DNA of 64,000 nt from an uncultured delta proteobacterium (lineage in GTDB: Bacteria; Myxococcota_A; Polyangia; Polyangiales; B10-G4), in NCBI GenBank assembly GCA_963727445.1, contig CAVSGI010000013.1:209316-273315 (forward strand), given 5' to 3'. The translations under genes and the position numbers were made by a program. Positions 35,036 through 49,364 of the stretch are shown here, one piece after another. Positions within the stretch are counted from its first letter, which is position 1. Each line of letters opens with the position of its first letter. Under the pieces are notes generated by a model, which was not told the DNA's origin, made no database searches, and saw only the letters and a program-made list of their open reading frames with translations.

Positions 35036-38000
35036 AGCGCCCGATGATCCTGATCGCGCCCGTCGTGGGCGCCCTCCTCAGCCTCACCCTCGCCGCCTGC
35101 GGCGACGACGACCTCGCGCCCGCCCCCACCGTGGCCCTCGCCGAGGTGATCCGCGGCGATTTCGCACTCGAGCGCGAGGGGCACGTCACGAAGGTGCGCG
35201 GACCCGAGCGCGTCGAAGAGGCGTCGACGGTGCGCACGGGCGCCGACGGGCGCGGCTTCCTTTCGCTCGACTCGGGCGCGTGGGTGCTCCTCGACCGCGA
35301 CAGCGCCCTCGTGCCCTCCCTCGAAGGGCTCACGCTGAGCGGTGGCCGCGCGTGGGTGGACGCCGGTTCGGCCGACGCGATCACGGTGGACACCGGCGCG
35401 GGCGAAGTGCGCGCGACCGGCGCGACCTTCGCGGTCGAAAAGGCCGAGGGCGGCGCGCGCATCTACTGCGGCAGCGGCGAGGTCACCTATCAGAGCGACG
35501 AAGGCGAAGGACGACTCGCCCAGGGCGAGACCCTCGTCCTCGGCGACGGAGCGCCCCGGGTAGAGACGCCGCTCTGGGACGACTGGACCGGCGGGCTCGC
35601 CGATCCGACACGCGACGCGGAGATCGGGCCGTCTCACATCGGCGTCCTTCGCGGGCGACGTCTCGACCAGCTCGGTCAGGCGCGGACGCCGCTGCCGATC
35701 CGGGGGCACGAGGTGAACGCCGTGCTCCGCGGCGACCTCGCCGAGACCACGGTCGTTCAGACCTTCTTCAACGCGCGGAGCGACATCCTCGAAGCGGAGT
35801 ACGCGGTGCGTATCCCCGAAGGCGCCGTGGTGCAGGGTTTCGAGGTGGACACCGGCGGGGGCTTCGTGTCGAGCGTCGCCCTGCCGATGCAGACCACGGA
35901 CGGCTACGGCATCAACTGGGGCTCCCCGACGCTCGCTTCGAGCCGGCTGAGCTGGGACGGCCCGGGGCGCCTGCGCGCGCGCATCAACCCCGTCTCGCCA
36001 GGAGCGACGGTCCGCGTGAAGCTCCGCTACACCGAGTGGATGGACCGGCGCGGCGCGATGCGCACCTGGGTCTACCCGATGCAGACAAGCGAAGGCGCGC
36101 CGCAGATCGGGGAGTTCGTCCTCGAGGTGGACGCCTCCGGGGCACAGGCCCGCGCCTATCGCGCGGGCATGGGGGCGACGGTCAGCGGCGGGCACATCGT
36201 GCTGCGCAGGAGCGACTTCCGCCCGCACGCCGACTTCTATCTCGACCTCGTCGACGCCGAGCCGCCGAAGTCCGACCAGGCGAAGCTCTATCTCGCCAAC
36301 GCGGCGGCGAGCGACGACCCGCTCGAAGAGGACGAGCGCTACGTGCTCGTGGATGTGCCCACCGAGGGGATCGCCGACAGCGATGACGAAACGGCCGAGC
36401 ACCCCCTCGAGCTGGTGATCGTGGTGGACGTGAGCGGCGCGACCGACGACGAGGATCTCGAGCTCTCGCAGAGCATCGTGGAGGGCGTGCTGCGCCAGCT
36501 CGCACCCACCGACCGCGTCACGCTGCGCCTCGGCGACGTGCGCGCCCGCGTTCCCGAAGGCATCCCCGCCGAGCCCGCGGAGGCGACGCCAGAGACCCGA
36601 GAAGCGCTCACCGACGCCCTCGCGCACGCCGACCTCGGCGGCGCGACCGATCTGGCGACCGTGCTCCGCGAAGCCGCGCGTGCGGTGGCGGGGCGGCCCC
36701 GGGGCGCGGTGCTCTATCTCGGCGACGCCATCCCGACCACCGGTCCCCTCGACGCGTCCGCCATCGGCGAGGTGCTGGCCTCGGTCGACGCCCCGCCGCG
36801 TTTCTTCGGCCTCGCGGTTGGCGACGGCGCGAACCTGGGCCTTCTGCGCGCACTCTTCGGGGAGGAGTCGCAGCTCGTCGCGGAGCGCACCGAGGCGTCG
36901 CGGGCGGTGATGGGCATCCTCGCCGAGGCCGCGCGGCCGACGCTTCGCGGCGTGAGCGTCGCGATGGGCGAGGGCATCGAGCGCGTCTACCCACGGCCGC
37001 CGATCACCGTCGCCGACCGATCGCACATCCGCTTCGTCGGCCGGCTCGTCGGAGAGGTCCCCACACGCATCACCCTGAGCGGCAGCCGCGACGGAGAAGC
37101 GTTCTCGAAGTCCTACCAGGTCGGGCAGCGGGACATCGTCGACGGGGGCGACATCGCGAAGCGCTGGGCCAACGAGCGGCTGAGGCAGCTCATGGACGAG
37201 AGCGCGGGCCGCGAGGCGCTGGTCGAGCTGGGCATGCGCTTTTCGCTGCTGTCGCCCTGGACCTCGCTGGTGGTGGGCGGGAGCTACGGCACCACCTACG
37301 TGCCGATCGAGGGGTTCGATCACGACCCGATGCGCCATCCCTTCTGGCTGGGCGGCGGCGGCGGCGGTCTGACCATCGACAGCCTCGAAGGACAGAGCGG
37401 TTGGCGCCGCCGCGCGCGCACGGAGGTCGAGCCGCCGGTCACCGCACCGGAAGAGACCTGGGTGCGCCGTGTGAGCGCGGACGACGAGGACGCGAGCGCG
37501 AGCGGCGACGGAGGGCTCGCCGAAGCCGCCGTCGGGCGCGCGCTCTCCCTCGGCACCCGCGGACCGCGCGGGTGCTACGAGCGCAAGCTGACGGTGCGTC
37601 CCGATCTGTCTGGCGACGTCACGGTGGAGGTGCGTGTCGACGGAGAAGGCAAGGTGGGCGAGGCCCGCGTGGTGGGCTCGACGCTGTCGGCCGCCGACGT
37701 CGACGACTGCATCCTCACGGAGGTGCGGGGGATCCGCTTCCCGGCGACCGGTGCTTCGACGGCGGTCCAGGTCACCCACGTCTACACCTTCGCCATGCCG
37801 AGCCGCGCCTTCGGCGAGCGCCGCCAGTGCAGCGACGCTTCGTATCAGGAGCTCGAGGTGCGGCGCCAGCTCTGGCACGAGCGCCTCGCTTCGAGCGCCG
37901 GCGTGTCGGGTGCGCTCCAGGTCTACCGCGAGGCGTCGCGCTGGTGCGAGCTCCGCGGATGGCGCGCACGGCGGACGCTGCTCTCGATGATGCTCCAGAG

Positions 38001-39168
38001 CGTCGGCGGCGTCGCGCAGCAGGTGCAGCTCTACCGCGCCTTCGGCGCCGACTCGTCGGTCGCCGGCTATCTGCGCCGCGCGATCCTCCGCCACGTGCGC
38101 ACCCCGGCCGACGTGATGGCGGTGCGCGCGGGGCTCGGCCTCGACGTGCCTGTCGACTGGCGCGTCTTCAGCAGGCTCTGGAAGGCGAATCACGATCCGG
38201 AAGCGCGCCTCCGGCTCGTGCGCACCTGGCTCGAGGTGGTGCCGGACGAGATGGACCTGCGACTGCGACTGCTGGCGCTCCTCGAAGAGACGGGCAAGCT
38301 CCCGGAGGCGCGCCGCCTCGCCCGCGAGCTTCGGGCCTGGCCGCTGGCCGACGCGCGAGTGCGCACGCAGGTGGGCGAGTTCTGGCTTCGCCAGGACGAC
38401 GTCGAGGAGGCACGCCGCGTCTTCAGCGAGATCGTCGAAAACGCGCCGCTCGATCCGTGGGCGCGGCGCCGACTCGGCGACCTCTATCGCAGCCACGGCT
38501 GGTACGACGACGCCTATCGCGAGTATCAGACGCTCGCGCGCCTGCGTCCCGACGAGGACTCGGTGCTCCTCGACCTCGCGCGGGCGGCGGCGGGCGCCGG
38601 CCGCATCGATGAGGCGCTTCGCTTGGAGCAGCGCCTGTCGGAGACGGCGGACGCAGACGCCAAGGACGGGGTCGCCGAGCTCGCGCGCCTCTGGACCGAG
38701 GTGCGTTTCGCCCGGCTGAAGAGCGAAGAGCTCGACGAGGCGACCGCCGCGGCCCTCAGGCGTCGCATCCGCCAGTCGGGGGCGCTGCGCGAGCCGCCGG
38801 CGATCTTCGTGGCCCTCACCTGGCCGCACCCCGACGATCGGCCCGAGCTCTTCCTTCATTTCCCCGAGAGCGCGATCACCAGCGAGAGGGAGGACGGCTA
38901 CTGGGAGCCCGCCGAGGTCACCGGCACGCTCCAGGGCATCAGCGCGAGTCACATCCGCGAGCTCGAAGGGGGCGACTACCTCCTCGAGGTGCGCCGCGAA
39001 GAAGAGGACGAGCTGCGCGACCTCGAGGCTCAGCTCCTGGTCGTCGTCGCCCCCGCCACCCCCGAGGAGCGCATCCTGCGCGCCGACGTGCGCCTCTCGC
39101 GCGAAGCGCGAAAGGCGCGTTTCGCGCTGAACGGCGACACCCTGCAGACGACGACCGTGAGCGACTGA
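35032..39168 (+). CDS. giant lipoprotein paralog (~1378 aa) with the same FecR-like - VIT - vWA - TonB_C-like - TPR architecture
   Basis: Start at MKRPMILIAPVVGALLSLTLAACG, overlapping the upstream stop (ATGA). Collinear with the upstream gene and clearly paralogous (e.g. LGQARTPLPIRGHEVNAVLRGDLAETTVVQTFFN; LVIVVDVSGATDD; CILTEVRGIRFPATGASTAVQVTHVYTF; RRLGDLYRSHGWYDDAYREYQTLA). Confidence 0.7.
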   Translation: MKRPMILIAPVVGALLSLTLAACGDDDLAPAPTVALAEVIRGDFALEREGHVTKVRGPERVEEASTVRTGADGRGFLSLDSGAWVLLDRDSALVPSLEGLTLSGGRAWVDAGSADAITVDTGAGEVRATGATFAVEKAEGGARIYCGSGEVTYQSDEGEGRLAQGETLVLGDGAPRVETPLWDDWTGGLADPTRDAEIGPSHIGVLRGRRLDQLGQARTPLPIRGHEVNAVLRGDLAETTVVQTFFNARSDILEAEYAVRIPEGAVVQGFEVDTGGGFVSSVALPMQTTDGYGINWGSPTLASSRLSWDGPGRLRARINPVSPGATVRVKLRYTEWMDRRGAMRTWVYPMQTSEGAPQIGEFVLEVDASGAQARAYRAGMGATVSGGHIVLRRSDFRPHADFYLDLVDAEPPKSDQAKLYLANAAASDDPLEEDERYVLVDVPTEGIADSDDETAEHPLELVIVVDVSGATDDEDLELSQSIVEGVLRQLAPTDRVTLRLGDVRARVPEGIPAEPAEATPETREALTDALAHADLGGATDLATVLREAARAVAGRPRGAVLYLGDAIPTTGPLDASAIGEVLASVDAPPRFFGLAVGDGANLGLLRALFGEESQLVAERTEASRAVMGILAEAARPTLRGVSVAMGEGIERVYPRPPITVADRSHIRFVGRLVGEVPTRITLSGSRDGEAFSKSYQVGQRDIVDGGDIAKRWANERLRQLMDESAGREALVELGMRFSLLSPWTSLVVGGSYGTTYVPIEGFDHDPMRHPFWLGGGGGGLTIDSLEGQSGWRRRARTEVEPPVTAPEETWVRRVSADDEDASASGDGGLAEAAVGRALSLGTRGPRGCYERKLTVRPDLSGDVTVEVRVDGEGKVGEARVVGSTLSAADVDDCILTEVRGIRFPATGASTAVQVTHVYTFAMPSRAFGERRQCSDASYQELEVRRQLWHERLASSAGVSGALQVYREASRWCELRGWRARRTLLSMMLQSVGGVAQQVQLYRAFGADSSVAGYLRRAILRHVRTPADVMAVRAGLGLDVPVDWRVFSRLWKANHDPEARLRLVRTWLEVVPDEMDLRLRLLALLEETGKLPEARRLARELRAWPLADARVRTQVGEFWLRQDDVEEARRVFSEIVENAPLDPWARRRLGDLYRSHGWYDDAYREYQTLARLRPDEDSVLLDLARAAAGAGRIDEALRLEQRLSETADADAKDGVAELARLWTEVRFARLKSEELDEATAAALRRRIRQSGALREPPAIFVALTWPHPDDRPELFLHFPESAITSEREDGYWEPAEVTGTLQGISASHIRELEGGDYLLEVRREEEDELRDLEAQLLVVVAPATPEERILRADVRLSREARKARFALNGDTLQTTTVSD

Positions 39169-39204
39169 GAGCACATCTCGAAGTTGTGCTCTACCCTGGG
39201 CGCC

Positions 39205-39750
39205 ATGGCCCTCGGCTCCACGGTCTACCGCTTCGCCATCGAGCTCTCGGACGTCGACCGCGGCGTCTACGAGTCCCTCGACCTGCGTGTCGCGCAGCAC
39301 CCGTCGGAGAGCGTACGGCGCATGACCGCGCGGGTGCTCGCCTACGCCCTGCGCTACGAAGAGGGCATCGCGTTCGGCCGCGGCCTGTCCACCGCCGAAG
39401 ACCCCGCGCTCTGGGTCAAGGACCTGCGCGGCGACGTGAATGCGTGGATCGAGGTCGGCCTGCCCGCACCGGAGCGCCTCCACCGCGCCTCGAAGACCGG
39501 CGCGCGCGTCTACGTCTACACCCACAAGGACCCGACCCCGTGGCTCGCCACCCTTGCAGGCGCGAAGATCCACGCCCGCGAGCAGATCGAGGTCTACAGC
39601 CTCCCCCCAGCGCTCCTCGACGCCCTCGAGACGCGCATCGGCCGCAACGTCACCTGGGGCGTCACCCTCACCGACGGCCACCTCTACATCCAAGACGGCG
39701 ACGACACCCTCGAGGGGACACCGGTGCGGCATCTGCTCGACCAGGCTTGA
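39205..39750 (+). CDS. yaeQ: YaeQ family protein
   Basis: MALGSTVYRFAIELSDVDRGVYESLDLRVAQHPSESVRRMTARVLAYAL matches the conserved YaeQ N-terminus (TiYKa.l.iaDmDRhvYe.l.ltvArHPSE); length about 181 aa. Confidence 0.75.
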   Translation: MALGSTVYRFAIELSDVDRGVYESLDLRVAQHPSESVRRMTARVLAYALRYEEGIAFGRGLSTAEDPALWVKDLRGDVNAWIEVGLPAPERLHRASKTGARVYVYTHKDPTPWLATLAGAKIHAREQIEVYSLPPALLDALETRIGRNVTWGVTLTDGHLYIQDGDDTLEGTPVRHLLDQA

Positions 39751-39893
39751 AGACGGCGTCAGCGCGTCGCGAGATGAGAAGCTACCGTCCGGGTGACGAC
39801 GGAGCGGCGAGCACGACTCCTGGTGCTACGGGCTCACCTGGCGCTTTGCTCGGGAGACGCGAGACACCACGAGGTGATACGATCACGTGGCGG

Positions 39894-41456
39894 ATGCGGT
39901 TCCTTCTCTTCGCCTCGATTCTGTCGTTCTCGGGATGCGGGAGCGACACCCAGCTCGAGCTCTTCGTCGATGTGCAGACGGCGCTTTCGCCGGGGAGCGA
40001 GTTCGATCTGGTGATGACGGAGATCTTCGCGGACGCAACGCCCGAGGCCGTGAGGCGCGTGGAGGTCTCCGCAGTGATGGGAGACGATTTCACCACGGGA
40101 CATCGCGCGGCCGAGTTCTCGGAGCTCGACCCGGGTCAGTACACGGTGCGTGCGACGCTGATGCTCCGCGGCTCCGAGGTCGCAAACCGCTCGGTGCTGG
40201 TCGCACTCGACTCCACGCGCGCGGTGACCATCGCGATCGGCGTGATGTGCAGCGGCGCCGGATGCCCTGACGGCGGCGTCGATGGCGGCGGCCTCGACGC
40301 AGGAATGGACGCCGACACCGCCATGCCGGACGCGTCGATCATGGACGCACCGCCCACGGATGCAGACACCTCGGCATCGGACGGAGGCGACGCTGACGCC
40401 CCGGACGGCAGCGCCTCGCCGTGGGGCTTCCGCAAGACGCTGACGATCGCCGACGGCATGCCGCGCGGAACGCTGAACGACTTTCCCGTCCTCGTGAGCA
40501 CGACCGATGCAGACCTCCGTTCAGTTTCCATGGGCGGCCGCGTCGCGCATTCGAGCGGTTACGACATCGTCTTCCGCGACGGTGACGAGATGCTCCCGCA
40601 CGAGATCGAGCGCTACGATCCCGCGACCGGCGAGCTGGTCGCGTGGGTCACCCTCCCCGTCCTGTCGTCCACCGGGAAGACGTTTCACATCTACTTCGGC
40701 AACCCCGCGATCAGCGCACCCACGATGAATCGGGCCGACGTGTGGCGTGCGGGCTTCGTGGGCGTCTGGCACATGGGTGAGGACGCGTGGACCGGCGCCC
40801 CCGGTGAAGTGCGCGACTCCACCGGCACCAACCCCGGGCGTGCGCTCGGTGGTTCGACCACCGTTCCGACGGGCAAGATCGGAAACGCCGGCACCTTCGG
40901 CGCCGACTCGTCGAACGTCGACGTCGGGATGAGCACCACCCTTCGACCGACCTCGATCACCGTGTCGGTGTGGGCCAACCCGGGGTCGGTCGGCTCAGTC
41001 CCCGACCGACACCCCTACATGCTCTGGCAGGACCTCTGGCGCTCCACGGGCTCGAATCCGCGCGGCTACTACATCGAGATCTACCGCACTCAGAGCGACC
41101 CGCGACCGACTTTCTACACGGCCAACGGAACGGAGATGGCGCACGCCTTCGCGACGACCCCCGTGGTGAACGGCACCTGGTACCACGTGGTCGGCACCCG
41201 CGACGAAGTCAGCGGCGTCACCCGCATCTACGTCGACGGAATCCAAGAAGGCTCGGCCAGCATGACCGGCGGCATCGCCTATCAGCCGAACGCGGTCCTC
41301 GTGGGCGGCACCGGGAGTCAGACCTGGGACGGGCTTCTGGACGAGGTACGAGTCGCCAACGTCCCCCGCTCCCCGGAGTGGATCTACACCGAATACGTCA
41401 ACCAGCTGTCCCCTGGCTCCTTCGTCGTCTTCGGCAGCCTCGAGACGCTTCCCTGA
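39894..41456 (+). CDS. DUF2341 + LamG/ConA-like (Laminin_G_3) domain lipoprotein
   Basis: Start at MRFLLFASILSFSGCG; Asp/Ala-rich acidic linker; DUF2341-like block (WGFRKTLTIADG...GYDIVF...TGELVAWVTLP...TFHIYFGNP); C-terminal LamG-like jelly roll (TWYHVVGTRDEVSGVTRIYVDGIQEG). Confidence 0.6.
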   Translation: MRFLLFASILSFSGCGSDTQLELFVDVQTALSPGSEFDLVMTEIFADATPEAVRRVEVSAVMGDDFTTGHRAAEFSELDPGQYTVRATLMLRGSEVANRSVLVALDSTRAVTIAIGVMCSGAGCPDGGVDGGGLDAGMDADTAMPDASIMDAPPTDADTSASDGGDADAPDGSASPWGFRKTLTIADGMPRGTLNDFPVLVSTTDADLRSVSMGGRVAHSSGYDIVFRDGDEMLPHEIERYDPATGELVAWVTLPVLSSTGKTFHIYFGNPAISAPTMNRADVWRAGFVGVWHMGEDAWTGAPGEVRDSTGTNPGRALGGSTTVPTGKIGNAGTFGADSSNVDVGMSTTLRPTSITVSVWANPGSVGSVPDRHPYMLWQDLWRSTGSNPRGYYIEIYRTQSDPRPTFYTANGTEMAHAFATTPVVNGTWYHVVGTRDEVSGVTRIYVDGIQEGSASMTGGIAYQPNAVLVGGTGSQTWDGLLDEVRVANVPRSPEWIYTEYVNQLSPGSFVVFGSLETLP

Positions 41457-41564
41457 ATCCTCTCCCGGGCGCGGCGGCGACGGTCGTCACGCGCCATGTA
41501 ACGGCCCTCACCAGGCGCAAACCCGGGGCCAAAGGCGCCTCCTCTTGACAGGCACCGCTCATTG

Positions 41565-41583
41565 ATGTCACAAGGTATGACAT
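41565..41583. promoter_or_regulatory. candidate TetR operator: inverted repeat ATGTCA-N7-TGACAT upstream of the tetR-family gene (a TTGACA -35-like hexamer lies at about 41545-41550)
   Basis: Palindrome seen directly in the sequence; a further TGACAT copy overlaps the TetR start codon (ctgacATGagc). Confidence 0.3.
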
Positions 41584-41601
41584 GAATTCAGCAGAGCTGA
41601 C

Positions 41602-42216
41602 ATGAGCCCTCGGGCCTACAGCAGCAAGCTCCGGGAGGAGCAGGCCGAGCAGACCCGCGAGCGCATCGTCGAGGCGCTCTTCGAGCAGGTTCTGGACACC
41701 CAGCGGAACGACTTCTCCATCGCCGACGTGGCGAAGCGGGCCGGCGTCTCGGAGCGGACCGTGTACCGGTACTTTCCGACGCGAGAGGATCTGGTCGGCG
41801 CGGTCGACGAGCGCTTCAACGACATCGAGGAGCAGCCGAAACCGCCACGGTCGGTCTCGGACTTTCCCCGGCACGTAGCCGAGCTCTACGAATGGTTCGG
41901 GAACAACGAGCAGCTGGTCGAAGCAGCGCACGTCGCGGGCATCGGGCGCGAGCTGCACCTGCGCGCGCGCGCGCGCCGGGGCGAAAAGGCGCGCCGGGTG
42001 ATGGATCGTCTCTTCAAGCCGCTCCCGAAGCGCGAGCGGAAGATCCTCTTCGCGGTGGTTCGCACCATGTTCGGCTCCGCCATCTGGCGCGCCATGCGTG
42101 AAGAAGGCGGGCTCACCAACGAAGAAGCGGCCGAAGCGGCCCAGTGGGTCGCGAGCCTGATCGCGAAGGACATCGCGCGTCGTCTGAAGGCGGCGAAGCA
42201 AGCCGAGGAGGGGTGA
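41602..42216 (+). CDS. TetR/AcrR family transcriptional regulator
   Basis: N-terminal HTH (FSIADVAKRAGVSERTVYRYFPTREDL) and an all-helical ligand-binding domain; 204 aa. Confidence 0.85.
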   Translation: MSPRAYSSKLREEQAEQTRERIVEALFEQVLDTQRNDFSIADVAKRAGVSERTVYRYFPTREDLVGAVDERFNDIEEQPKPPRSVSDFPRHVAELYEWFGNNEQLVEAAHVAGIGRELHLRARARRGEKARRVMDRLFKPLPKRERKILFAVVRTMFGSAIWRAMREEGGLTNEEAAEAAQWVASLIAKDIARRLKAAKQAEEG

Positions 42217-42218
42217 CG

Positions 42219-43940
42219 ATGGGGGAAGACGTGCGTTGGGAAGCGCCGGGGGAGGGCCCGTGGGAATTCGATGCGAGTCACTTCGACCGCCCGCTGGCGC
42301 GATACGGCTCGGAGCTCATCTGCGAGGGCTTCAGTCGGGGACAGGCGGCCTCGTTCGAACGAACCGGGGTGCCGATGAAGACCATCCGGGTCGGGCTGGT
42401 CAACGGCCTGCCCTTCATGCAGATCGTCCCCATCATCGGCAAGCCGAGCGACGCCTACAAGGCGCCGCCGCCCGCGTGGCTCTTCAAGATCGTCAGCGTC
42501 CTCCATCCGACCCTTCGCCGGCGCGCACGAACCCTCGACGAATGGGTCTGCAACAAGGGCTGGCGCGCCGATCTCGAGACGTGGGATCGCGAGCTGAAGC
42601 CTGGCCTCGTCGCGCGCTACCAGGCGCTCCAGGACGTCGACCTCGAAACGCTCTCGGACGAAGAGCTCGTCGATCACCTGGCGGAGTGCGGCCAGGCGAT
42701 CCTCGACAACATGTACGCGCACTTCCACACCAACCCGACCACGATCTTCCCGGTCGGGCTCTTCGTGCATCGCGCGATCGAGTGGAGCGGCTGTGCGCCC
42801 CTCGAGGCGCTCGCGCTCCTGGAGCATCACGACAGGTCTTCCTCGCCGGAGCGCGCGGCGCTCGCGGAGTGGACACGTGCCGCGCGCGACGACCGAGACG
42901 CGCTCCATGCACTGCTGAACGATGGCGCGACCCCTCCGATGGACAAGCTCGACGCTCTCCGCGGCCGGGACGATGCCATCGGCGAGGCGACGCGGACCTG
43001 GCTCGAGACCGTGGCCTACCGTCAGGTCGCCGCGGGCGACATCGCCAATCCCATCGGCATCGAGATGCCGGCGGCGCTCACGGCGCAGCTCGCCCGCGCC
43101 CTCGACGCCGAGGAAGCGGCGCCCACCGCCGTCGACGAGTCCGGCTTCTGGGCGAAGGTGCCAGAAGAGCACCACGCGGCGCTCGAAGCGCTCCTGAAGG
43201 AAGCGCGCCTGGTCTATCGCGTGCGCGACGAGCGCAGCGGCGAGCTCGACGCCTGGTGCATGGGGCTGACCCGCCGGGCGCTCCTCGAAGCCGGCGCGCG
43301 CCTCCACCGACTCGGGCGGCTGCTGGACGCGAAGCACGTGGTGGATCTCGCCACGGACGAGCTGCCGGCGCTCCTTCTTCGCGGCGAAGGGCCCGAGCCC
43401 GAGGAGGTGCGTGCGCGCACAGAGCAGCGGAGCTCCCTGCGGGTCGACAAAGCACCGAGCTTCCTCGGCGCCGACAGCCCGCCTCCGCCACCCCCCGCGG
43501 AGCTCTTCACCGGTCACGCGGCCGACCTGTTGGCCTCGATCATCACCTACCGCGCCCTCATGGAAGACTCGGCGCCCGAGCCTGCCGCGCCCAAGAAGGA
43601 CGTGCTCGAGGGGCTCGCCGCGAGCGCTGGGAGCTACACCGGCACGGCGCGGATCTGCACCGACCCCTCGCACTTCGGCGCGGTCGAGCCCGGCGACGTC
43701 CTCGTCGCCCGCGCCACCATGCCCTCGTACAACGTGCTGCTCCCCATCGTGGGGGCGGTGGTGACGGATCGCGGCGGCGCGCTCTGCCATGCGGCGATCG
43801 TGTCTCGCGAATATGGCCTGCCCTGCGTGGTCGGAACCCGCGACGCGACGCGACGCATCGAGGACGGAGATCGGGTCACGGTCGATGGCGACACGGGACG
43901 CGTCGTCATCGAAGAAAAGGCGATGGAGCGCGCGTCATGA
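42219..43940 (+). CDS. PEP-utilising enzyme family protein (PpsA/rifampin-phosphotransferase-like central region + phosphohistidine swivel domain, lacking ATP-grasp)
   Basis: Start trimmed to MGEDVRWEAPG. The C-terminus carries the PEP-utilising mobile domain (VTDRGGALCHAAIVSREYGLPCVVGT) with the catalytic His. No PPDK_N ATP-grasp in this polypeptide. Confidence 0.7.
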   Translation: MGEDVRWEAPGEGPWEFDASHFDRPLARYGSELICEGFSRGQAASFERTGVPMKTIRVGLVNGLPFMQIVPIIGKPSDAYKAPPPAWLFKIVSVLHPTLRRRARTLDEWVCNKGWRADLETWDRELKPGLVARYQALQDVDLETLSDEELVDHLAECGQAILDNMYAHFHTNPTTIFPVGLFVHRAIEWSGCAPLEALALLEHHDRSSSPERAALAEWTRAARDDRDALHALLNDGATPPMDKLDALRGRDDAIGEATRTWLETVAYRQVAAGDIANPIGIEMPAALTAQLARALDAEEAAPTAVDESGFWAKVPEEHHAALEALLKEARLVYRVRDERSGELDAWCMGLTRRALLEAGARLHRLGRLLDAKHVVDLATDELPALLLRGEGPEPEEVRARTEQRSSLRVDKAPSFLGADSPPPPPPAELFTGHAADLLASIITYRALMEDSAPEPAAPKKDVLEGLAASAGSYTGTARICTDPSHFGAVEPGDVLVARATMPSYNVLLPIVGAVVTDRGGALCHAAIVSREYGLPCVVGTRDATRRIEDGDRVTVDGDTGRVVIEEKAMERAS

Positions 43941-44893
43941 AGAAGTGGGACGGACAGCACCTGACCGATTTCCTCGGGACCTCCGCGGCCGTCGCGTGGG
44001 CGGTGAAGGTCGGGCTGATCGAGCGCCTGGCCGACGGCGCCCAGCCTCTCGGGTCGCTCGCGAAGGAGCTCGAATCCGACGCGAAGGCGCTCGACGTCAC
44101 TCTCGGCGTCCTCGAATCCGTCGGCCTCGTACAGCTTCGGCAGGGGCAGGTGGCGCTCGGCGAGGAGGTGAGCGAAACGCTTCAGGCCGAGCCGGGGGCC
44201 GCGCGCGCGCACCTCGCCCTGTGGCGCTCCCTGGGGGACTTCGTGAAGAGCGGGCGCTCCGCCTTGCCCACCGATGGCGCGACCCGCGACGGCGTCTACG
44301 CACACGTGGTCCGTGCCCTCGAGCGCCGCTTCTCGTCGTCAGCCGACGCGCTGGCGGACGCGCTGGGCCCCGCGGACGGGCCGATCCTCGACGTGGGTGC
44401 GGGGAGCGGCGTGTGGAGCCTCGCCATGGCGGCGCGCGACGAAGCGTCGACCGTCACCGCCCTCGATGGACCGGAGACGGCCGAGGTCTTCCTCGGGCGC
44501 GCGCGGGACCGAGGGCTCGGCGAACGCGCCGACGCGCTGGTCGGCGACTACCACGAGGTACCGCTCCCCGAATCGCACTTCGCTCGCATCGTGATGGCCA
44601 ACGTCCTGCACCTGGAATCGCCACAGCGCGCAGCGTCGCTGGTCGCGCGCGTTCGGCCGGCGCTTCGGCCGGGCGGATCGCTGGTGGTCGTCGACGCGAT
44701 TCGAGACGCGGATCCTGCGAATGCGCAGACCGTCGCGGTCTATCGCCTTCATCTCACCATGCGCGTCGACGGCAGCGTCGTGCACCAGCGCGGGGACTTC
44801 GAGGGTTGGATGCGTGCCGTGGGGTTGGGCCGGATGTCGTGGCGCACCTTGCCCCTCGGAGGGATGTGGGCGCTCTCGGCGGAGGCGTCGTGA
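43937..44893 (+). CDS. class I SAM-dependent O-methyltransferase (family 2, with N-terminal dimerisation/wHTH domain)
   Basis: ILDVGAGSGVWSLAMA motif I; COMT-like overall layout; start overlaps the upstream stop (ATGA). Confidence 0.75.
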   Translation: MKKWDGQHLTDFLGTSAAVAWAVKVGLIERLADGAQPLGSLAKELESDAKALDVTLGVLESVGLVQLRQGQVALGEEVSETLQAEPGAARAHLALWRSLGDFVKSGRSALPTDGATRDGVYAHVVRALERRFSSSADALADALGPADGPILDVGAGSGVWSLAMAARDEASTVTALDGPETAEVFLGRARDRGLGERADALVGDYHEVPLPESHFARIVMANVLHLESPQRAASLVARVRPALRPGGSLVVVDAIRDADPANAQTVAVYRLHLTMRVDGSVVHQRGDFEGWMRAVGLGRMSWRTLPLGGMWALSAEAS

Positions 44894-45678
44894 TCCCGCT
44901 CGACAGCGCCAGCGACCCGGCGCGCTTCGGTGGCAAGGCAGCGGAGCTCTCGCGGGCGCTCGGCTCGGGGCTGCCGGTGCCGCAGGGCTATGCCCTCGAC
45001 GTCGAGATGGTGGAGGCCATCGTCGCGGGCAAGAGGCTCGCCCTCGCGGCGGACCAGCGTCGCTGGGCGGTGCGGAGCTCGGCGATCGGCGAGGACAGCG
45101 CGGGCGCGAGCTTCGCCGGGATGCACCTCACGAAGCTGCACGTGAAATCGGAGGGGCTCGCCGACGCCGTCCGCGAGGTGCACGCGTCCGCGCACACGCG
45201 CGCCGCGCTCGCCTATCGCGAGCGGTTGGGCATCACGGGGGCGCCGCGGATGGCGGTCATCGTCCAGGAGATGATCGAGGCCGAGGTCGCGGGCGTGCTC
45301 TTCACGCGTCACCCGATGACCGGCGCGCACGAGCGCGTGGTCGAGGCGAGCTGGGGGCTCGGGGAAACGGTGGTGTCGGGATTGGTGACGCCGGATCACT
45401 TTCGGCTGAGCCCGACGGGACACCTGCTGTCGAAGCGGGCGGGTCACAAGGACGTCGCGATCGTCTGGGACGAGGAGGGTGGGACGCGCGAGGAGGAGGT
45501 CCACCAGGCGCGGCACCGCGCGTTCTGCCTGAACGACGTGCGCCTGGCCGCCCTGTCGGCGCTGGCTCACGCGGTCGAGAGAGCGATGCCGGGCGAGCAC
45601 GACCTCGAGTGGGCCTTCGCCGCGGGCTCGGTCGATCCGCATCTTCTGCAGCGGCGGCCGATCACGAAGATGGGTTGA
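44890..45678 (+). CDS. stand-alone PPDK_N (pyruvate phosphate dikinase/PEP synthase ATP-grasp nucleotide-binding) domain protein
   Basis: GTG start overlapping the OMT stop (GTGA); FGGKAAEL...VPQGYAL, VAVRSSAIGEDSAGASFAGMH, MAVIVQEMIEAEVAGVLFTRHP, RVVEASWGLGETVVSG are hallmark PPDK_N motifs. Confidence 0.7.
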   Translation: MIPLDSASDPARFGGKAAELSRALGSGLPVPQGYALDVEMVEAIVAGKRLALAADQRRWAVRSSAIGEDSAGASFAGMHLTKLHVKSEGLADAVREVHASAHTRAALAYRERLGITGAPRMAVIVQEMIEAEVAGVLFTRHPMTGAHERVVEASWGLGETVVSGLVTPDHFRLSPTGHLLSKRAGHKDVAIVWDEEGGTREEEVHQARHRAFCLNDVRLAALSALAHAVERAMPGEHDLEWAFAAGSVDPHLLQRRPITKMG

Positions 45679-45708
45679 GGCGGAGGAGGGGCTGTTAGAG
45701 TCCGCCCG

Positions 45709-46350
45709 ATGACGGACCTCTCCACTTTCTTCCGCGAGCGCTACGTCGCGCTCTTCAACCGCGGCGTCACGCTTCTCGAAGAGCGGGCTGCGGAAGGCCC
45801 GGAGGCCCAGCGCGCGCTCGACGACGTCAAGGCGGCGCGCGGCACCAGCCGCCTTTGCTTCGAGCGCGAGGACGGCGATGCAATCGAGATCTGGCTCGCC
45901 CTCGAAGAGGGTGTGATGTCCGCCGCCGACGCGCGCCCCGAGGACATGCCGATGCGCCTCTCGGTGGTCATGCCCAAAGAAGCTGCGGAGCTCTGGGTGG
46001 CCGAGCTCGAGAAGCGGGAAGAGCTCGACTCCGACGAGGCCGCCGTGCGCGTCGCCCGCGGGGTGAGCGGTGAGCTCGAGGAGGCCATCGGCGACGAATC
46101 CCTCGACTTCGAGCTGATCCTCGTGGACACGCCGGACTTCGAAGAGGTGCGCGTCAAGATTGCGCTCCACGCCGAGACGCCTCCAGAGCGGCCCACCTTC
46201 ACGGCGCAGGTTCGATGGGACGACCTCGCGTCCATGCGCGAGGCGGGGCAGAACCTCCAGCAACTCATGATGGGCGGCAAGCTCAAGCTCGGCGGCGACT
46301 ACACGCGCGCCATGCAGGTGGCGATGGAGCTGATGCAGAAACGCCGGTGA
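45709..46350 (+). CDS. SCP2 sterol-carrier-like domain protein
   Basis: C-terminal QQLMMGGKLKLGGDYTRAMQVAMELM matches the SCP2 signature (f.sGklkieGdm.lamkl). Confidence 0.6.
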   Translation: MTDLSTFFRERYVALFNRGVTLLEERAAEGPEAQRALDDVKAARGTSRLCFEREDGDAIEIWLALEEGVMSAADARPEDMPMRLSVVMPKEAAELWVAELEKREELDSDEAAVRVARGVSGELEEAIGDESLDFELILVDTPDFEEVRVKIALHAETPPERPTFTAQVRWDDLASMREAGQNLQQLMMGGKLKLGGDYTRAMQVAMELMQKRR

Positions 46351-46408
46351 TTATCGCGAAGGAAACGAAATCGACCCCTGTGGCCCGATTGACATAAACT
46401 CCCCCGAG

Positions 46409-46925
46409 ATGACCCGACTCAGATTGGCCGGGCTCGCAGCCGCGGGCGCCATCGTCCTCGCAGGCTGCCCCGGAAGCCTGCAGAACCCAGAGCGCTTCGG
46501 CTCGGGAACCTGCGACGGGGAGATGGTGCTCGCCCAGACTTGTGGGTCGAACCCGATCTGCCACGACGCCGATGCGCCACAGGGAGGGCTCGAATCTCGC
46601 GAGCCCGGGCGTGGCCAGCCGCGTGATCGACGTGATGCCGAACCTGTGTACGACGAGCAACGTCTACGTCGACTCGACCAACCCCTCAGCGAGCTTCATC
46701 CTCGAGAAGATCAATCCGTCTCCCGGCTGCGGCGAGCAGATGCCGCCGAGCTCTTTCGGGGAGACGCCGCTGACCGCGACGCAGATCGAATGCATCACCA
46801 GCTGGGTGACGGAGATCACGGGCGGCGGTGGCGGTGACGCGGGCGCGGGCGATGGCAGCGCGGGCGACGGCAGCGCCGGGGATGCCGCGACCGATGCGGC
46901 GGGCGGCGACGGAGCGATGCCATGA
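46409..46925 (+). CDS. small lipoprotein, hypothetical; apparent frameshift near 46590
   Basis: Signal MTRLRLAGLAAAGAIVLAGC in ORF 46409..46837; continuation (SNLASPGVASRVIDVMPNLC...GGGGDAGAGDGSAGD) in ORF 46542..46925. Confidence 0.4.
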
Positions 46926-48587
46926 AGCGCGCTTCGCTCTTCGTCGTCTCGACCCTCGGCCTCCTGTGTCTCGCCAGCGCAGCCCAGGCGCAGTCGCGGG
47001 TGGTGGTGCTCGATTTCAGCGGCCCGCGCTCGGGTGCGATCCGCGCTCAGATCGTTCGCGGTCTGTCGAGTCACTCCGAAGTCGAGCTGGTTCCGTCGGC
47101 GCAGGCCGGCTCGCCCGACACCGCCTCGGACTTCGCCAGCGTCGCCTCCGATCTCGGCATCAAGGTGTTCATCGGCGGCCGCGTGGTGCGGCGCGGGCGA
47201 CGTTTCTCGGTGACTGTCGTCGCGCGCGACAGCACCGGCTCCGAGATCCACCGCGAGCGCTACCGCGCCCGCAACGCCGGTGGCCTCGGCCGCAACGTTC
47301 GCAACAACGTGTGGGACGACTTCGGCGGCGCGATCGAGTCCGCGCCGGAGCCCGCTGGCGGCGGTGGCGGTGGTGATGACTCGGGCGGCGGCTCCGGCGA
47401 ATCGGGCGGCGGCGGGCCCGCGCTCAACGGTCCGGTGGTCGTCCTCCCCTTCGACGGCCCCGGCGCCGGCCGCGCGCGAAGCCGCGTGGTGTCGGCTCTG
47501 GAGGACGCGGGCGTCGAGCTCGTGCCCAAGGAAGAGGCCGAGGGGCGGGGCGACCTGGATGAGGCCCGCGGGCGTCTCGCGGTGGCGCGCCACCTGGGGG
47601 TCGCGGCGCTGGTCTCGGGCGAGGTCGAGCGCGAAGGTCGGAGCTACACCGCGACCGTGGTGGTCTACGACGGCCGCGATGGCGAAGAGAATCGACTCCG
47701 CAGAGTTCGAGGGGCGCACCGCCAACGCGCTTCTTTCGTCCATCGAGTCTTCGCTCTGGGACGAGATCGGCGCGTACGTCGCCGAAGGCGAGATCCCCGA
47801 GGCAGGCGGTGACGAGGACGGCGATGACGGCGACGAGGGTTGGTCGGGCCCGAGCGGTCCGCTGCCCTCGCCGCTGACGCTGATCGCCGAGTTCGCCGGA
47901 TTCGGCCGCCAGTACAGCTACAACGACGACCTCTTCGGCGCGCTGCGCGCCTACAGCCTCGGCTTCGCGCCGATGGTCGGCGCCAAGCTCTACTACTTCC
48001 CGGCCGCGCACTTCACGAACAGCTTCGCTGCCAACATCGGCATCGACGCGCGCATCGAGACCGCCTTCGGCGTCAAGAGCCAGGACTCGGCGGGCCAGGA
48101 GTTCCCCACCTCGATGTGGGGCTTCGGCCTGGGCGGGCGCGTGCGCATCCCCATCGGCGACCACTACCTCTCCGCGATCGTCGGCTACGGCGCGCAGAGC
48201 TTCCGCATCGAGGCGATCAGCCCGACCATCCCCGCGCCCGACGTCCCCGACGTCGACTACGGGTTCTTGCGCATCGGCGCGGAGATGCGGCTGGTCTTCG
48301 GCGTGTTCGTGACCGAGCTGAAGGCGTCGCTCCTGCCCCTGTTGAGCTCCGGGCAGCTCGGCTCGAACGAGTGGTTCCCGCGCACCACCGGCGGGGGGAT
48401 GGAGGCAGGCCTCGTCCTCGGCGTGCTCGTCACCAATTGGTTCGAGGTCCGCGCAGGCTTCGAGTACCGCCGCTTCTGGTTCTCGATGAACCCGGAGCCA
48501 GGCGACACCTACGTCGCAGGCGGCGCCCTCGACAGCTACTTCGTCGGCAACATCGGCCTCGGCCTGCACTGGCCCGGCTCGAACTGA
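46922..48587 (+). CDS. outer-membrane beta-barrel-like protein with duplicated N-terminal periplasmic modules; apparent frameshift near 47690
   Basis: Signal MKRASLFVVSTLGLLCLASAAQAQ. Repeated module (RVVVLDFSGPRSGAIRAQIVRGL...VELVP and PVVVLPFDGPGAGRARSRVVSAL...VELVP). C-terminal half (ORF 47280..48587) is rich in alternating aromatic/hydrophobic beta-strand patterns. Confidence 0.5.
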
Positions 48588-48591
48588 GGGG

Positions 48592-49302
48592 TCACTCGTC
48601 GAGCAGGCCTTCGCCGCCGAAGCGGCTGAGGTAATCGCGAAGGGTCTTCCCGTCTTCGTCGGTGAAGGTGTCGCTGAGGGCCTCGGCCTTCTTCATGCGG
48701 TCGACGCGGAAGGTGCGGAAGTCTTCGCGGAGCTCGCACCAGGCGGTGAGGGTCCAGGTGCGGCCCCAGAAGAAGAGGCCGAGGGGACGCACGGTGCGCG
48801 ATGAGGTGTCGCCGTCGGGCTTCTCGTAGTCGATGCGGAGCTTGTTCTGTCCGGCGGCGGCGCGGCGGACGGCGCTGAGGGTCTCGGAGTCGGCCTTGTC
48901 GTCGTCGCCGAAGCGCAGGGCGAAGAGCTTGGACTCGCGCAGCAGGGGGCGCAGCCGCTTGGGCAGGACCGCCTGGACCTTGGACAGGACCTGGTCGGCC
49001 GCCTTGGCGAGGCGCTCGTCGCCGTGGCGGCGGACGATGCGCGCGCCGAACACCAGGGCCTCAATCTCTTCCGCGTCGAACATCAGCGGTGGCAGGTCGT
49101 AATCGCGCCGGAGCTGGTAGCCGACGCCGGCCTCTCCTTCGATGGGCGTGCCCGACGACACGAGGTCGCGCACGTCCCGATACACCGTCCGCTCCGAGAC
49201 CTCGAGCTGCTCCGCGAGGAAGCGGGCCGTCACCGCCCGCCGCCGTCCCCGAAGGAGCTGGATGATCTGGAAGAGTCGGTCGGCGCGTCGCATGCGGGGC
49301 AT
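48592..49302 (-). CDS. YafY-family transcriptional regulator (HTH + WYL domain)
   Basis: N-terminal HTH (RADRLFQIIQLLRGRRRAVTARFLAEQLEVSERTVYRDVRDL); WYL-domain region (RIDYEKPDGDTSSRTVRPLGLFFWGRTWTLTAWCELREDFRTFRVDRM). Confidence 0.8.
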   Translation of the reverse strand: MPRMRRADRLFQIIQLLRGRRRAVTARFLAEQLEVSERTVYRDVRDLVSSGTPIEGEAGVGYQLRRDYDLPPLMFDAEEIEALVFGARIVRRHGDERLAKAADQVLSKVQAVLPKRLRPLLRESKLFALRFGDDDKADSETLSAVRRAAAGQNKLRIDYEKPDGDTSSRTVRPLGLFFWGRTWTLTAWCELREDFRTFRVDRMKKAEALSDTFTDEDGKTLRDYLSRFGGEGLLDE

Positions 49303-49364
49303 GCTAACGCCGTGGGTCAGGGTTCATGGGGAGATTGTGGCGCAGGGGTGCTGACGGCGTTGTG

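What the first reader, a model, noticed from the sequence alone, without database searches (positions are those of the whole stretch)
41602..46350. TetR-controlled cassette encoding a split PEP-synthase/rifampin-phosphotransferase-like enzyme with an O-methyltransferase inserted between its two halves
Five co-directional genes look like one small-molecule modification cassette under TetR control:
- a TetR regulator with a candidate palindromic operator;
- a 573-aa protein ending in the phosphohistidine swivel domain of PEP-utilising enzymes but lacking the ATP-grasp domain;
- a family-2 O-methyltransferase;
- a stand-alone PPDK_N ATP-grasp domain protein;
- an SCP2 lipid-carrier protein.
Each gene overlaps the next by 4 nt (ATGA/GTGA), which argues for tight co-translation. 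In rifampin phosphotransferase and PEP synthase these two domains are fused in the opposite order (ATP-grasp first). Here the enzyme is split, the order is inverted, and a methyltransferase is interposed. That suggests a two-step phosphorylation/methylation of a hydrophobic substrate, induced through TetR: either xenobiotic/antibiotic inactivation or a tailoring step.
Basis: partly seen in the sequence, partly recalled or inferred. Interest (0 to 1): 0.65.

Follow-up and report, generated by a model that had tools for sequence, protein, structure and literature searches.

The report
TetR-controlled split dikinase plus O-methyltransferase operon
This is a four-gene, repressor-controlled operon that encodes a two-subunit ATP-dependent kinase of the rifampin-phosphotransferase type and a partner O-methyltransferase; the split kinase is an already known kind, but its conserved pairing with a methyltransferase has not been characterised and probably marks a chemical-detoxification module.

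Summary
The genes and domains are real. Two details are wrong: only two junctions overlap by 4 nt, and the SCP2 gene is not part of the unit.

- **SCP2 gene:** its orthologues in two related contigs sit in the same chromosomal backbone without the cassette. Window 39169-45708 is therefore a ~6.5 kb indel.
- **Real unit:** tetR, a substrate-binding/swivel subunit (His524), an O-methyltransferase and a compact ATP-grasp subunit, at 41602-45678. An operator, TGTCA-N7-TGACA, lies upstream and is conserved in orthologous loci.
- **Not new:** "split with inverted order" describes the known two-component dikinases PpsAB, CreHI, HpeHI and AcvAB, which are relatives of rifampin phosphotransferase. In 35 of 40 related loci the ATP-grasp gene directly follows the swivel gene.
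- **Distinctive:** the methyltransferase. The set {TetR, swivel, grasp, OMT} recurs in at least four gene orders, including fused kinase plus OMT.
- **Context:** the sister clade replaces the OMT with a DHA2 drug-efflux pump. No catabolic or biosynthetic genes flank the unit.

Most likely function: inducible phosphorylation plus methylation of a hydroxylated xenobiotic or antibiotic. The substrate is unknown. Verdict: a new variant of a known kind, of moderate interest.

The parts
41546..41551 (+). TTGACA, a -35-like hexamer upstream of the operator (inferred promoter element)
   Evidence: Read directly from the sequence. A TTGAC(A/G/T) hexamer lies upstream of the palindrome (13-15 nt in the window, L163 and L166) in L161, L163, L164 and L166. 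The consensus promoter scan found no full sigma-70 match, so the -10 element is not identified.
41565..41583 (.). Candidate TetR operator, ATGTCA-N7-TGACAT
   Evidence: A single match in 64 kb against 0.02 expected. The same TGTCA-N7-TGACA motif lies just upstream of the orthologous tetR in L163, L164, L166 and L167, and upstream of a more distant linked tetR in L055. L161 has the variant ATGACA-N7-TGTCAT.
41602..42216 (+). TetR-family repressor (204 aa), first gene of the operon
   Evidence: TetR_N 1.4e-11. Orthologues at 49-60% identity occupy the same position in L161-L166. More distant homologues (28-38%) accompany the trio in L172-L175 and L178.
42219..43940 (+). Dikinase subunit 1 (573 aa): RPH-type substrate-binding domain plus C-terminal phosphohistidine swivel domain (His524)
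43937..44893 (+). COMT/DnrK-type family-2 O-methyltransferase (318 aa), translationally coupled on both sides
   Evidence: Methyltransf_2 2.7e-11 and Methyltransf_25 6.5e-13. AF2 pLDDT 93.8. Full-length Foldseek matches to DsyB, RedM, ASMT, MfnG, DnrK, MmcR and PigF, with TM about 0.7. LDVGAG 151-156 and H225-L-E227 are invariant in 42 homologues.
44890..45678 (+). Dikinase subunit 2 (262 aa): compact stand-alone ATP-grasp (PPDK_N) subunit
   Evidence: PPDK_N 1.6e-57. The best solved relative is HpeI, 9GOJ, at 1.6e-35. K16, R62, T81 and E240 align with RPH K22, R117, T136 and E297 (PMC4844700). It lacks the ~55-70-residue segment that HpeI and RPH carry between the GGK motif and the RSS motif.

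Best explanation
Window 41602-45678 is a self-contained, autoregulated operon: tetR, dikinase subunit S, O-methyltransferase, dikinase subunit G.

**Proposed mechanism**
1. With no inducer, the TetR dimer sits on TGTCA-N7-TGACA, just downstream of the -35-like hexamer, and blocks transcription. A small-molecule ligand releases it.
2. Subunit G is a compact ATP-grasp that binds ATP.
3. The swivel domain of subunit S docks on G, and His524 attacks the beta-phosphate. This releases AMP and, after hydrolysis of the gamma-phosphate, Pi.
4. The domain swings back and transfers the phosphoryl group to a hydroxyl of a small molecule held in the RPH-type helical binding domain of S. R336/D337 handle the phosphate.
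5. The COMT-type methyltransferase, with general base His225, methylates the same molecule or its phospho-product.

**Proposed role**
The most likely biological role is inducible inactivation of a hydroxylated, probably phenolic, xenobiotic or antibiotic.

**Shown**
- Gene structure, folds and catalytic residues.
- Conserved linkage of the four parts.
- Conserved operator.

**Inferred**
- The reaction chemistry, by homology with RPH, PpsAB and HpeHI.
- The order of the two modifications.
- The substrate class.
- Detoxification as the role.
For: **The two kinase genes form one enzyme**
- The ATP-grasp gene directly follows the swivel gene in 35 of 40 non-clade-A loci at 34% identity or more.
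- Single-chain fusions exist in the order substrate-binding, swivel, compact grasp: P0184, P0186, P0208, P0215 and P0227.
- Fused RPH-order relatives align over 96-97% of subunit S at 30-31% identity.

**Fold and residues**
- The family profile matches the RPH RIF-binding domain and conserves the R666/E667 equivalents.
- H524 is invariant.
- The K22, R117 and T136 equivalents are present in subunit G.
- The mechanism has been shown experimentally for RPH (PMC4844700) and for HpeHI and PpsAB (PMC12167813).

**Coupling to the methyltransferase**
- TetR-S-M-G occurs in six further independent contigs with different flanks.
- S-G-M occurs in L015, L174 and L175-178. S-TetR-G-M occurs in L172/173. 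A fused G-S gene is followed by M with a 4-nt overlap in L099 and L114.
- All three contexts sampled from the methyltransferase side contained the dikinase pair.
- H225 is invariant.

**Regulation**
- The operator is conserved upstream of the orthologous tetR genes.

**Role**
- Twenty sister-clade loci carry a DHA2 (EmrB/TcmA-like) efflux pump next to the pair.
- No carboxylase, phosphatase, PKS or NRPS genes flank the module in any locus.
- Neighbours in L172 and L174 are stress or repair genes: Ada, AlkA, Ogt, glyoxalase, OsmC and GST.
Against: - No substrate is identified, and nothing biochemical was tested.
- All characterised two-component members (PpsAB, CreHI, HpeHI, AcvAB) are catabolic rather than resistance enzymes.
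- RPH-like enzymes can also act as ligases (PigC, RedH), and a COMT-type methyltransferase (PigF) works next to PigC in prodiginine biosynthesis.
- The R336/D337 assignment rests on a weak profile alignment (domain i-Evalue 2.8e-6).
- No -10 element was recognised.
- Efflux-pump linkage is seen in the sister clade, not in this clade.
- The window carries apparent frameshifts in nearby genes, so assembly quality is imperfect. The four module genes are nevertheless full length against their homologues.
Confidence: 0.6

Rival explanations
1. Scavenging or catabolic phenol kinase. As with HpeHI, CreHI, PpsAB and AcvAB, the dikinase traps a phenolic growth substrate as its phosphate ester to start a degradation pathway encoded elsewhere. 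The methyltransferase is an accessory.
For: - Every characterised two-component member is catabolic and acts on phenols.
- HpeI is the best solved relative of subunit G.
Against: - Known catabolic kinases co-localise with a carboxylase and a phosphatase. None is present here or in 12 related MT-linked loci.
- O-methylation blocks rather than prepares ring degradation.
- The sister clade is linked to DHA2 efflux pumps, not uptake systems.
- Subunit S matches only the swivel part of the longer PRK08296 models.
Confidence: 0.2
2. Biosynthetic tailoring or ligase pair. As with PigC/PigF (RedH/RedI) in prodiginine synthesis, the RPH-like enzyme activates an oxygen by phosphorylation for condensation, or decorates a metabolite. 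The methyltransferase performs the neighbouring step on an endogenous product or signal.
For: - The best NCBIfam hit of subunit G is RedH, at 3.6e-49 but far below its cut-off.
- PigF and RedM are among the full-length structural matches of the methyltransferase.
- A LAL-type regulator precedes the fused kinase plus methyltransferase in L099.
Against: - No PKS, NRPS, pig/red or other scaffold genes occur in any of the loci examined.
- The flanks differ in every contig.
- TetR-first autoregulated architecture and efflux-pump sister loci are typical of response or resistance modules.
- The PigF and RedM matches are no better than those to many other OMTs.
Confidence: 0.12
3. The methyltransferase is an unrelated passenger that happens to lie between two kinase genes, with no shared chemistry.
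For: Most relatives of the dikinase pair (clade B) have no methyltransferase.
Against: - 4-nt overlaps on both sides.
- The same methyltransferase subfamily is linked to dikinases in four different gene orders, including fused kinases.
- 3 of 3 contexts sampled from the methyltransferase side hold the pair.
Confidence: 0.05

Closest known systems
Two-component small-molecule dikinases: PpsAB (phenylphosphate synthase, Thauera), CreHI (Corynebacterium), HpeHI (Rhodococcus GD02) and AcvAB (Sphingobium SYK-6)
   Same: - A separate ATP-grasp subunit, and a subunit carrying the RPH-type binding domain plus a C-terminal swivel His.
- The swivel gene comes first.
- The T/SxxGGxxxH motif has Cys at -1, as in HpeH, and no regulatory Thr at -2.
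- HpeI (9GOJ) is the best solved relative of subunit G.
   Different: - Both subunits are smaller: 573 versus about 640 aa, and 262 versus about 370 aa. The grasp lacks a ~55-70-residue segment.
- No flanking carboxylase or phosphatase catabolic genes.
- A partner O-methyltransferase and a TetR repressor are conserved parts.
Rifampin phosphotransferase (RPH, e.g. Listeria 5HV1/5FBS)
   Same: - The same three structural modules and the same catalytic residues.
- It is an inactivating enzyme for a hydroxylated antibiotic.
   Different: - RPH is one chain in the order grasp, binding domain, swivel. Here there are two chains, swivel-subunit gene first.
- 19% identity.
- Scores are far below the NCBIfam RPH cut-off: 90 and 151 bits against 999.
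- There is no evidence for rifamycin as the substrate.
PigC/RedH with PigF/RedI (prodiginine ligase and O-methyltransferase)
   Same: An RPH-architecture ATP-grasp/swivel enzyme works next to a COMT-type O-methyltransferase on one small molecule.
   Different: - PigC and RedH are single chains inside a large biosynthetic cluster.
- They use phosphorylation to activate a carbonyl for condensation.
- No such cluster is present here.
PEP synthase / pyruvate phosphate dikinase
   Same: ATP-grasp and phosphohistidine swivel domains, with beta-phosphoryl transfer through His.
   Different: The PEP/pyruvate-binding TIM-barrel domain is absent and is replaced by the helical RPH-type domain.
COMT/DnrK/MfnG-type family-2 O-methyltransferases
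   Same: A two-domain fold (winged-helix dimerisation domain plus Rossmann domain), the SAM motif, and the conserved His of the LH(D/L) motif.
   Different: - A distinct subfamily that is consistently linked to dikinase genes.
- It has invariant R117, R197, R276, Y121 and Y269, which are not typical of the hydrophobic acceptor pockets of characterised members (from memory, not tested).

Membership tests
Two-component RPH-like small-molecule dikinases (PpsAB/CreHI/HpeHI/AcvAB) | Stand-alone ATP-grasp (PPDK_N) subunit with ATP-phosphate-binding residues | tested here: met
   - PPDK_N 1.6e-57.
- HpeI 9GOJ at 1.6e-35.
- K16, R62 and T81 align with RPH K22, R117 and T136 (PMC4844700).
Two-component RPH-like small-molecule dikinases (PpsAB/CreHI/HpeHI/AcvAB) | Second subunit with an RPH-type substrate-binding domain followed by a C-terminal swivel domain carrying the catalytic His in T/SxxGGxxxH | tested here: met
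- The family profile matches RPH 497-747.
- T516...H524 is invariant.
Two-component RPH-like small-molecule dikinases (PpsAB/CreHI/HpeHI/AcvAB) | The two genes are linked, swivel subunit first | tested here: met
   - 35 of 40 related loci have the grasp gene directly downstream.
- In the window the two genes are 950 nt apart with the methyltransferase between them, all translationally coupled.
Two-component RPH-like small-molecule dikinases (PpsAB/CreHI/HpeHI/AcvAB) | Close sequence relationship (~45% identity) to PpsA, CreH or HpeH | not tested
   - Sequences of the characterised swivel subunits were not obtainable with these tools.
- NCBIfam PRK08296 sub-models match far below their cut-offs.
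- Both subunits are shorter than HpeH and HpeI.
Two-component RPH-like small-molecule dikinases (PpsAB/CreHI/HpeHI/AcvAB) | Dikinase chemistry (ATP gives AMP plus Pi plus phospho-substrate) on a phenolic hydroxyl | not testable with these tools
   Needs enzyme assays.
Two-component RPH-like small-molecule dikinases (PpsAB/CreHI/HpeHI/AcvAB) | Embedded in an aromatic catabolic cluster (carboxylase, phosphatase) | tested here: not met
   - Flanks are VIT/TPR giant genes, a LamG gene, an SCP2 gene and a WYL regulator.
- No such genes occur in orthologous contigs.
Rifampin phosphotransferase (RPH) | Single polypeptide in the order ATP-grasp, RIF-binding domain, swivel, scoring above the NCBIfam NF041857 cut-off | tested here: not met
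   Two separate genes, scoring 90 and 151 bits against a cut-off of 999.
PEP synthase / PPDK | PEP/pyruvate-binding TIM-barrel domain | tested here: not met
   - No such Pfam domain in any of the genes.
- PEPS and PPDK structures align only over the swivel domain.
Family-2 (COMT-type) small-molecule O-methyltransferases | PF00891 above the gathering score, SAM motif, conserved catalytic His, N-terminal dimerisation domain | tested here: met
   - 43.7 bits against 22.3.
- LDVGAG and H225 are invariant.
- Full-length structural matches with TM about 0.7.
TetR-family repressor with autoregulated operator | TetR_N helix-turn-helix and a palindromic operator at its own promoter | tested here: met
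   - for the helix-turn-helix.
- The palindrome is unique in the window and conserved in orthologous loci.
- Binding and ligand release are not testable here.
Five-gene cassette as proposed (SCP2 included) | The SCP2 gene co-occurs with the other four genes | tested here: not met
   - No SCP2 homologue was found in the 167 related loci then held.
- SCP2 orthologues lie in the same backbone without the cassette in L168 and L169.

The most novel reading that the evidence does not exclude
The methyltransferase acts on the phosphorylated product and not on a free hydroxyl. For example, it could cap the new phosphate monoester as a neutral methyl phosphodiester. This would make inactivation phosphatase-proof and let the product leave the cell without a pump.

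The idea would explain three observations:
- The OMT and a DHA2 efflux pump are alternative partners of the same dikinase pair.
- The trio stays translationally coupled through several gene-order permutations.
- This OMT subfamily has invariant Arg and Tyr residues (R117, R197, R276, Y121, Y269).

It would be a previously undescribed two-enzyme route to methyl phosphate esters of small molecules.
Probability: 0.12. Interest if true: 0.75.

Novelty: new variant of a known kind. Interest (0 to 1): 0.5.

Why it matters
RPH-type dikinases are a recognised but poorly explored reservoir of antibiotic-inactivating and phenol-activating enzymes. This analysis shows three things:
- A large family of compact two-subunit versions exists, with 808 representatives at E <= 1e-30.
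- That family is habitually wired to either a drug-efflux pump or a dedicated O-methyltransferase, under TetR control.
- The family is spread across Actinomycetota, Myxococcota, Acidobacteriota, Gemmatimonadota and Proteobacteria.

If the detoxification reading is right, these are candidate resistance or xenobiotic-modification determinants that current annotation hides behind names such as "PEP-utilizing enzyme". The TetR/operator pair offers a direct experimental handle for finding the inducer, and through it the substrate.

Tried and rejected
- **Metagenome scan:** Contexts were recovered instead by exact-protein look-ups.
- **Plasmid search:** this gave only generic annotation. One example was a Streptomyces linear plasmid with HTH, PEP-utilizing enzyme and PEP/pyruvate-binding protein. 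A Rhodococcus hit was not an HpeH-type locus, so I could not make a direct comparison with the characterised swivel subunits.
- **Mobile-element signatures:** I looked at the indel borders and found no flanking repeats and no compositional deviation (module GC 0.706 against 0.70 in the flanks).
- **Promoter and terminator scan:** no full sigma-70 promoter, and no terminator between the grasp and SCP2 genes.
- **SCP2 as a substrate carrier:** rejected on synteny.
- **PEP synthase or PPDK identity:** rejected because the PEP/pyruvate domain is absent.
- **RPH membership:** rejected on architecture and scores.
- **Limits of the tools:** complex prediction of the two subunits was not possible because the tool predicts single chains only. 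Model coordinates are not exposed, so I could not check whether the invariant Arg and Tyr residues of the methyltransferase cluster at its active site.
- **Literature searches:** no description of a dikinase-methyltransferase module was found in the held library.

Full report
**1. What is in the sequence**

The window is about 70% G+C. A third-position GC plot picks one clear reading frame through each of five co-directional genes between 41602 and 46350.

Pfam and NCBIfam assign them as follows:

| Coordinates | Product | Assignment |
|---|---|---|
| 41602-42216 | 204 aa | TetR_N repressor |
| 42219-43940 | 573 aa | Only Pfam domain is the PEP-utilizers swivel, residues 490-560 |
| 43937-44893 | 318 aa | Methyltransf_2/25 protein |
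| 44890-45678 | 262 aa | PPDK_N ATP-grasp protein (1.6e-57) |
| 45709-46350 | 213 aa | Weak, partial SCP2 match |

- ATGA (43937-43940) and GTGA (44890-44893) overlaps link the three enzyme genes.
- tetR ends 2 nt before ATG 42219. That ATG has a strong GAGGAGG ribosome-binding site. An in-frame GTG at 42213 would give a GTGA overlap.
- The SCP2 gene starts 30 nt after the grasp gene.

The palindrome ATGTCA-N7-TGACAT is at 41565-41583, 13 nt downstream of a TTGACA hexamer. Its core occurs once in the window against 0.02 expected.

**2. The two kinase genes are the halves of one RPH-type dikinase**

An AlphaFold2 model of the 573-aa protein, built from 30 homologues, is confident (pLDDT 89.8, pTM 0.90).
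- Every other strong hit covers only the ~100-130-residue swivel domain.

A profile of the family makes RPH the best sequence hit in the PDB (7.8e-42).
- Besides the swivel domain, it aligns profile positions 183-417 with RPH 497-747, the RIF-binding domain.
- That alignment puts RPH R666/E667 on R336/D337, which are conserved in at least 90% of the family. In RPH those two residues are essential for the second phosphotransfer (PMC4844700).

The swivel motif is T516-D-R-G-G-A-L-C-H524, and H524 is invariant.

For the 262-aa protein:
- Its best solved relative is HpeI (9GOJ, 1.6e-35).
- It keeps the equivalents of RPH K22, R117, T136 and E297, namely K16, R62, T81 and E240.
- It lacks the ~55-70 residues that HpeI and RPH carry between the GGK and RSS motifs. 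All close homologues are 262-276 aa long, so this compact form is a family trait and not a truncation.

- The catalytic His is present.
- The two genes are normally linked. Among 40 non-clade-A loci whose swivel protein is at least 34% identical, 35 have the grasp gene immediately downstream.
- The exhaustive library search found 808 representatives at E <= 1e-30, almost all stand-alone proteins of 545-590 aa.
- It also found single-chain fusions in the same permuted order (binding domain, swivel, compact grasp). These are classical fusion evidence that the two products work together.

**3. This architecture is already known**

PpsAB (phenylphosphate synthase), CreHI, HpeHI and AcvAB are two-component dikinases.
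- One subunit corresponds to the RIF-binding plus swivel domains of RPH, and the other to its ATP-grasp.
- The swivel-subunit gene comes first.
- For HpeHI, the His mutant is dead and the swivel subunit alone transfers phosphate between phenols (PMC12167813; PMC12624787).

"Split and inverted" is therefore the hallmark of a described subfamily and not a novelty. The enzyme resembles PEP synthase only in its ATP-grasp and swivel domains. It has no PEP/pyruvate barrel.

**4. What the unit really comprises**

The SCP2 gene does not belong to the unit.
- No homologue of it occurs in the 167 related loci held at that point.
- Its own orthologues (60-73% identity) in two related contigs lie directly after the same pair of giant VIT/TPR genes. 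They also lie before the same downstream genes and WYL regulator that flank the cassette in the window.
- tblastx shows window 32240-38886 collinear with L168 3-6694, and window 45706-49305 collinear with L168 6998-10600.
- Window 39169-45708, which holds a LamG-domain gene region plus tetR, S, M and G, is therefore a ~6.5 kb indel relative to those genomes.
- The indel has no flanking repeats and no compositional anomaly.

The four-gene order tetR, S, M, G recurs, with 45-62% identical proteins, in six further contigs whose flanks are all different (L161/L162, L163, L164, L165, L166, and the cut P0002 contig).
- In L164 the swivel gene is split in two and the gene that follows the methyltransferase is not a grasp gene.

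The operator is conserved too.
- TGTCA-N7-TGACA lies downstream of a TTGAC(A/G) hexamer (14-15 nt in L163 and L166) and just upstream of tetR in L163, L164 and L166.
- The motif is also present upstream of tetR in L167, which is identical to the window over the parts compared.
- L161 has the variant ATGACA-N7-TGTCAT.
- The same motif precedes a distant linked tetR in L055.

**5. The methyltransferase is a conserved partner, and "between the halves" is one permutation**

The protein models confidently (pLDDT 93.8) as a full two-domain COMT-type enzyme.
- Full-length matches include DsyB, RedM, ASMT, MfnG, DnrK, MmcR and PigF.
- The SAM motif LDVGAG and the H225-L-E227 motif are invariant in 42 homologues. 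That motif sits where, from my knowledge of COMT, the family has its catalytic His.

Homologues of this methyltransferase are linked to dikinases in other arrangements:

| Arrangement | Loci |
|---|---|
| S-G-M | L015, L174, L175-178 (a homologue of this TetR lies upstream on the opposite strand in L174, L175 and L178) |
| S-TetR-G-M | L172/L173 |
| Fused RPH-order kinase, then M with a 4-nt overlap | L099, L114 |

The functional unit is therefore {TetR, S, G, OMT}. The window shows one of at least four gene orders.

**6. Clues to the role**

- In the sister clade (34-41% identity) the pair is followed by an MFS transporter in 20 loci. NCBIfam places this transporter with DHA2 drug:H+ antiporters such as EmrB, TcmA, LfrA and QacA.
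- In seven other loci the grasp subunit is fused to a cyclic-nucleotide-binding domain.
- In Streptomyces a TetR precedes the pair.
- No locus carries the carboxylase and phosphatase genes that accompany the catabolic kinases, and none carries biosynthetic scaffold genes.
- Neighbours of MT-linked loci include Ada/AlkA/Ogt, glyoxalase, OsmC and GST genes.

Together with RPH as the structural prototype, this favours an inducible small-molecule inactivation module. It does not prove it.

**7. Mechanism proposed**

The steps are:
1. TetR is released by a ligand.
2. ATP binds in the compact grasp subunit.
3. His524 on the swivel domain is pyrophosphorylated, and the gamma-phosphate is hydrolysed.
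4. The domain swings back to the helical binding domain, and phosphate is transferred to a substrate hydroxyl with help from R336/D337.
5. The methyltransferase O-methylates the same molecule or its phospho-product.

How much of this is shown:
- The folds, residues and linkages are shown here.
- The chemistry is inferred from RPH, PpsAB and HpeHI.
- The substrate and the order of the two steps are unknown.

My confidence by component:

| Component | Confidence |
|---|---|
| Two-component dikinase | about 0.9 |
| Functional coupling to the methyltransferase | about 0.75 |
| Detoxification rather than catabolism or biosynthesis | about 0.5 |

**8. Rivals**

- A catabolic phenol-trapping kinase, which is the role of every characterised two-component member.
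- A PigC/PigF-like tailoring pair.
- A passenger methyltransferase.

Each is weighed in its own section of this report.

The most novel reading that the evidence does not exclude is that the methyltransferase acts on the phosphate ester, capping it as a methyl phosphodiester. This would explain why the OMT and an efflux pump are alternative partners of the same kinase. It would also explain why this OMT subfamily has several invariant Arg and Tyr residues. I could not test it here.

**9. Verdict**

The split kinase is a new, compact member of a known subfamily. Its conserved wiring to a dedicated O-methyltransferase and a TetR/operator pair is an uncharacterised variant. I found no description of it in the held literature.

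Noticed in passing
window 45709-46350, with L168 7001-7645 and L169 7001-7633: The SCP2-domain gene belongs to a conserved backbone (VIT giant, VIT giant, SCP2, two unknown genes, WYL regulator on the opposite strand). In the window the LamG gene region plus the dikinase operon (39169-45708) sits between the second VIT gene and SCP2. L169 has a 2OG-Fe(II) oxygenase gene at that spot, so this is a variable insertion point.
   Followed up: yes
window 46451-46820, 46922-48584 and 51114-51402: Orthologues of three L168 genes (158 aa, 563 aa and 106 aa) are each split across two reading frames in the window. For example, the 563-aa orthologue switches frame at about 47689. These are either assembly indel errors or pseudogenes. 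The four module genes are intact.
   Followed up: partly
L008, L014, L023, L025, L026, L029 and L045 (grasp genes, e.g. L025 8605-9852): In seven sister-clade loci the ATP-grasp subunit carries a C-terminal cyclic-nucleotide-binding domain. This suggests cNMP control of a small-molecule dikinase.
   Followed up: partly
P0184, P0186, P0208, P0215 and P0227 (846-889 aa): These are single-chain enzymes in the circularly permuted order binding domain, swivel, compact ATP-grasp, which is the reverse of RPH. P0205 (1514 aa) adds a dual-specificity phosphatase and an EF-hand to an RPH-order kinase.
   Followed up: partly
window 41597-41605; also L166, L164 and L163 at the tetR start: A third TGACAT(G) half-site overlaps the tetR start codon in the window (cTGACATGa). 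Similar sequences occur in L166 and L164, and as TGTCATG in L163. It could be an auxiliary operator half-site or a conserved start context.
   Followed up: no
window 39184-41456: There is either one 756-aa ORF, or two genes of 188 aa and 520 aa, ending in a Laminin_G_3/concanavalin-like domain. It lies inside the same indel as the operon but is absent next to the operon in other contigs. A 7-bp hairpin (GAGCACA...TGTGCTC) follows the stop codon of the upstream VIT gene at about 39169-39191.
   Followed up: no
L172 11156-12286 and 12393-13985: In the S-TetR-G-M variant the operon is followed by an AI-2E-family transporter and an Ada/AlkA/Ogt alkylation-repair set.
   Followed up: no
L027, L032, L034, L035, L037, L039-L044, L046-L050, L052-L054, L057, L058, L060 and L087-L091 (mostly Acidimicrobiia/Actinomycetota MAGs and unlabelled metagenome contigs; L058 is Myxococcales): A clade of full-length swivel-subunit homologues (about 28-34% identity) has no detectable ATP-grasp gene within 3.5 kb. 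Their phosphoryl donor partner is unknown or is encoded elsewhere.
   Followed up: no
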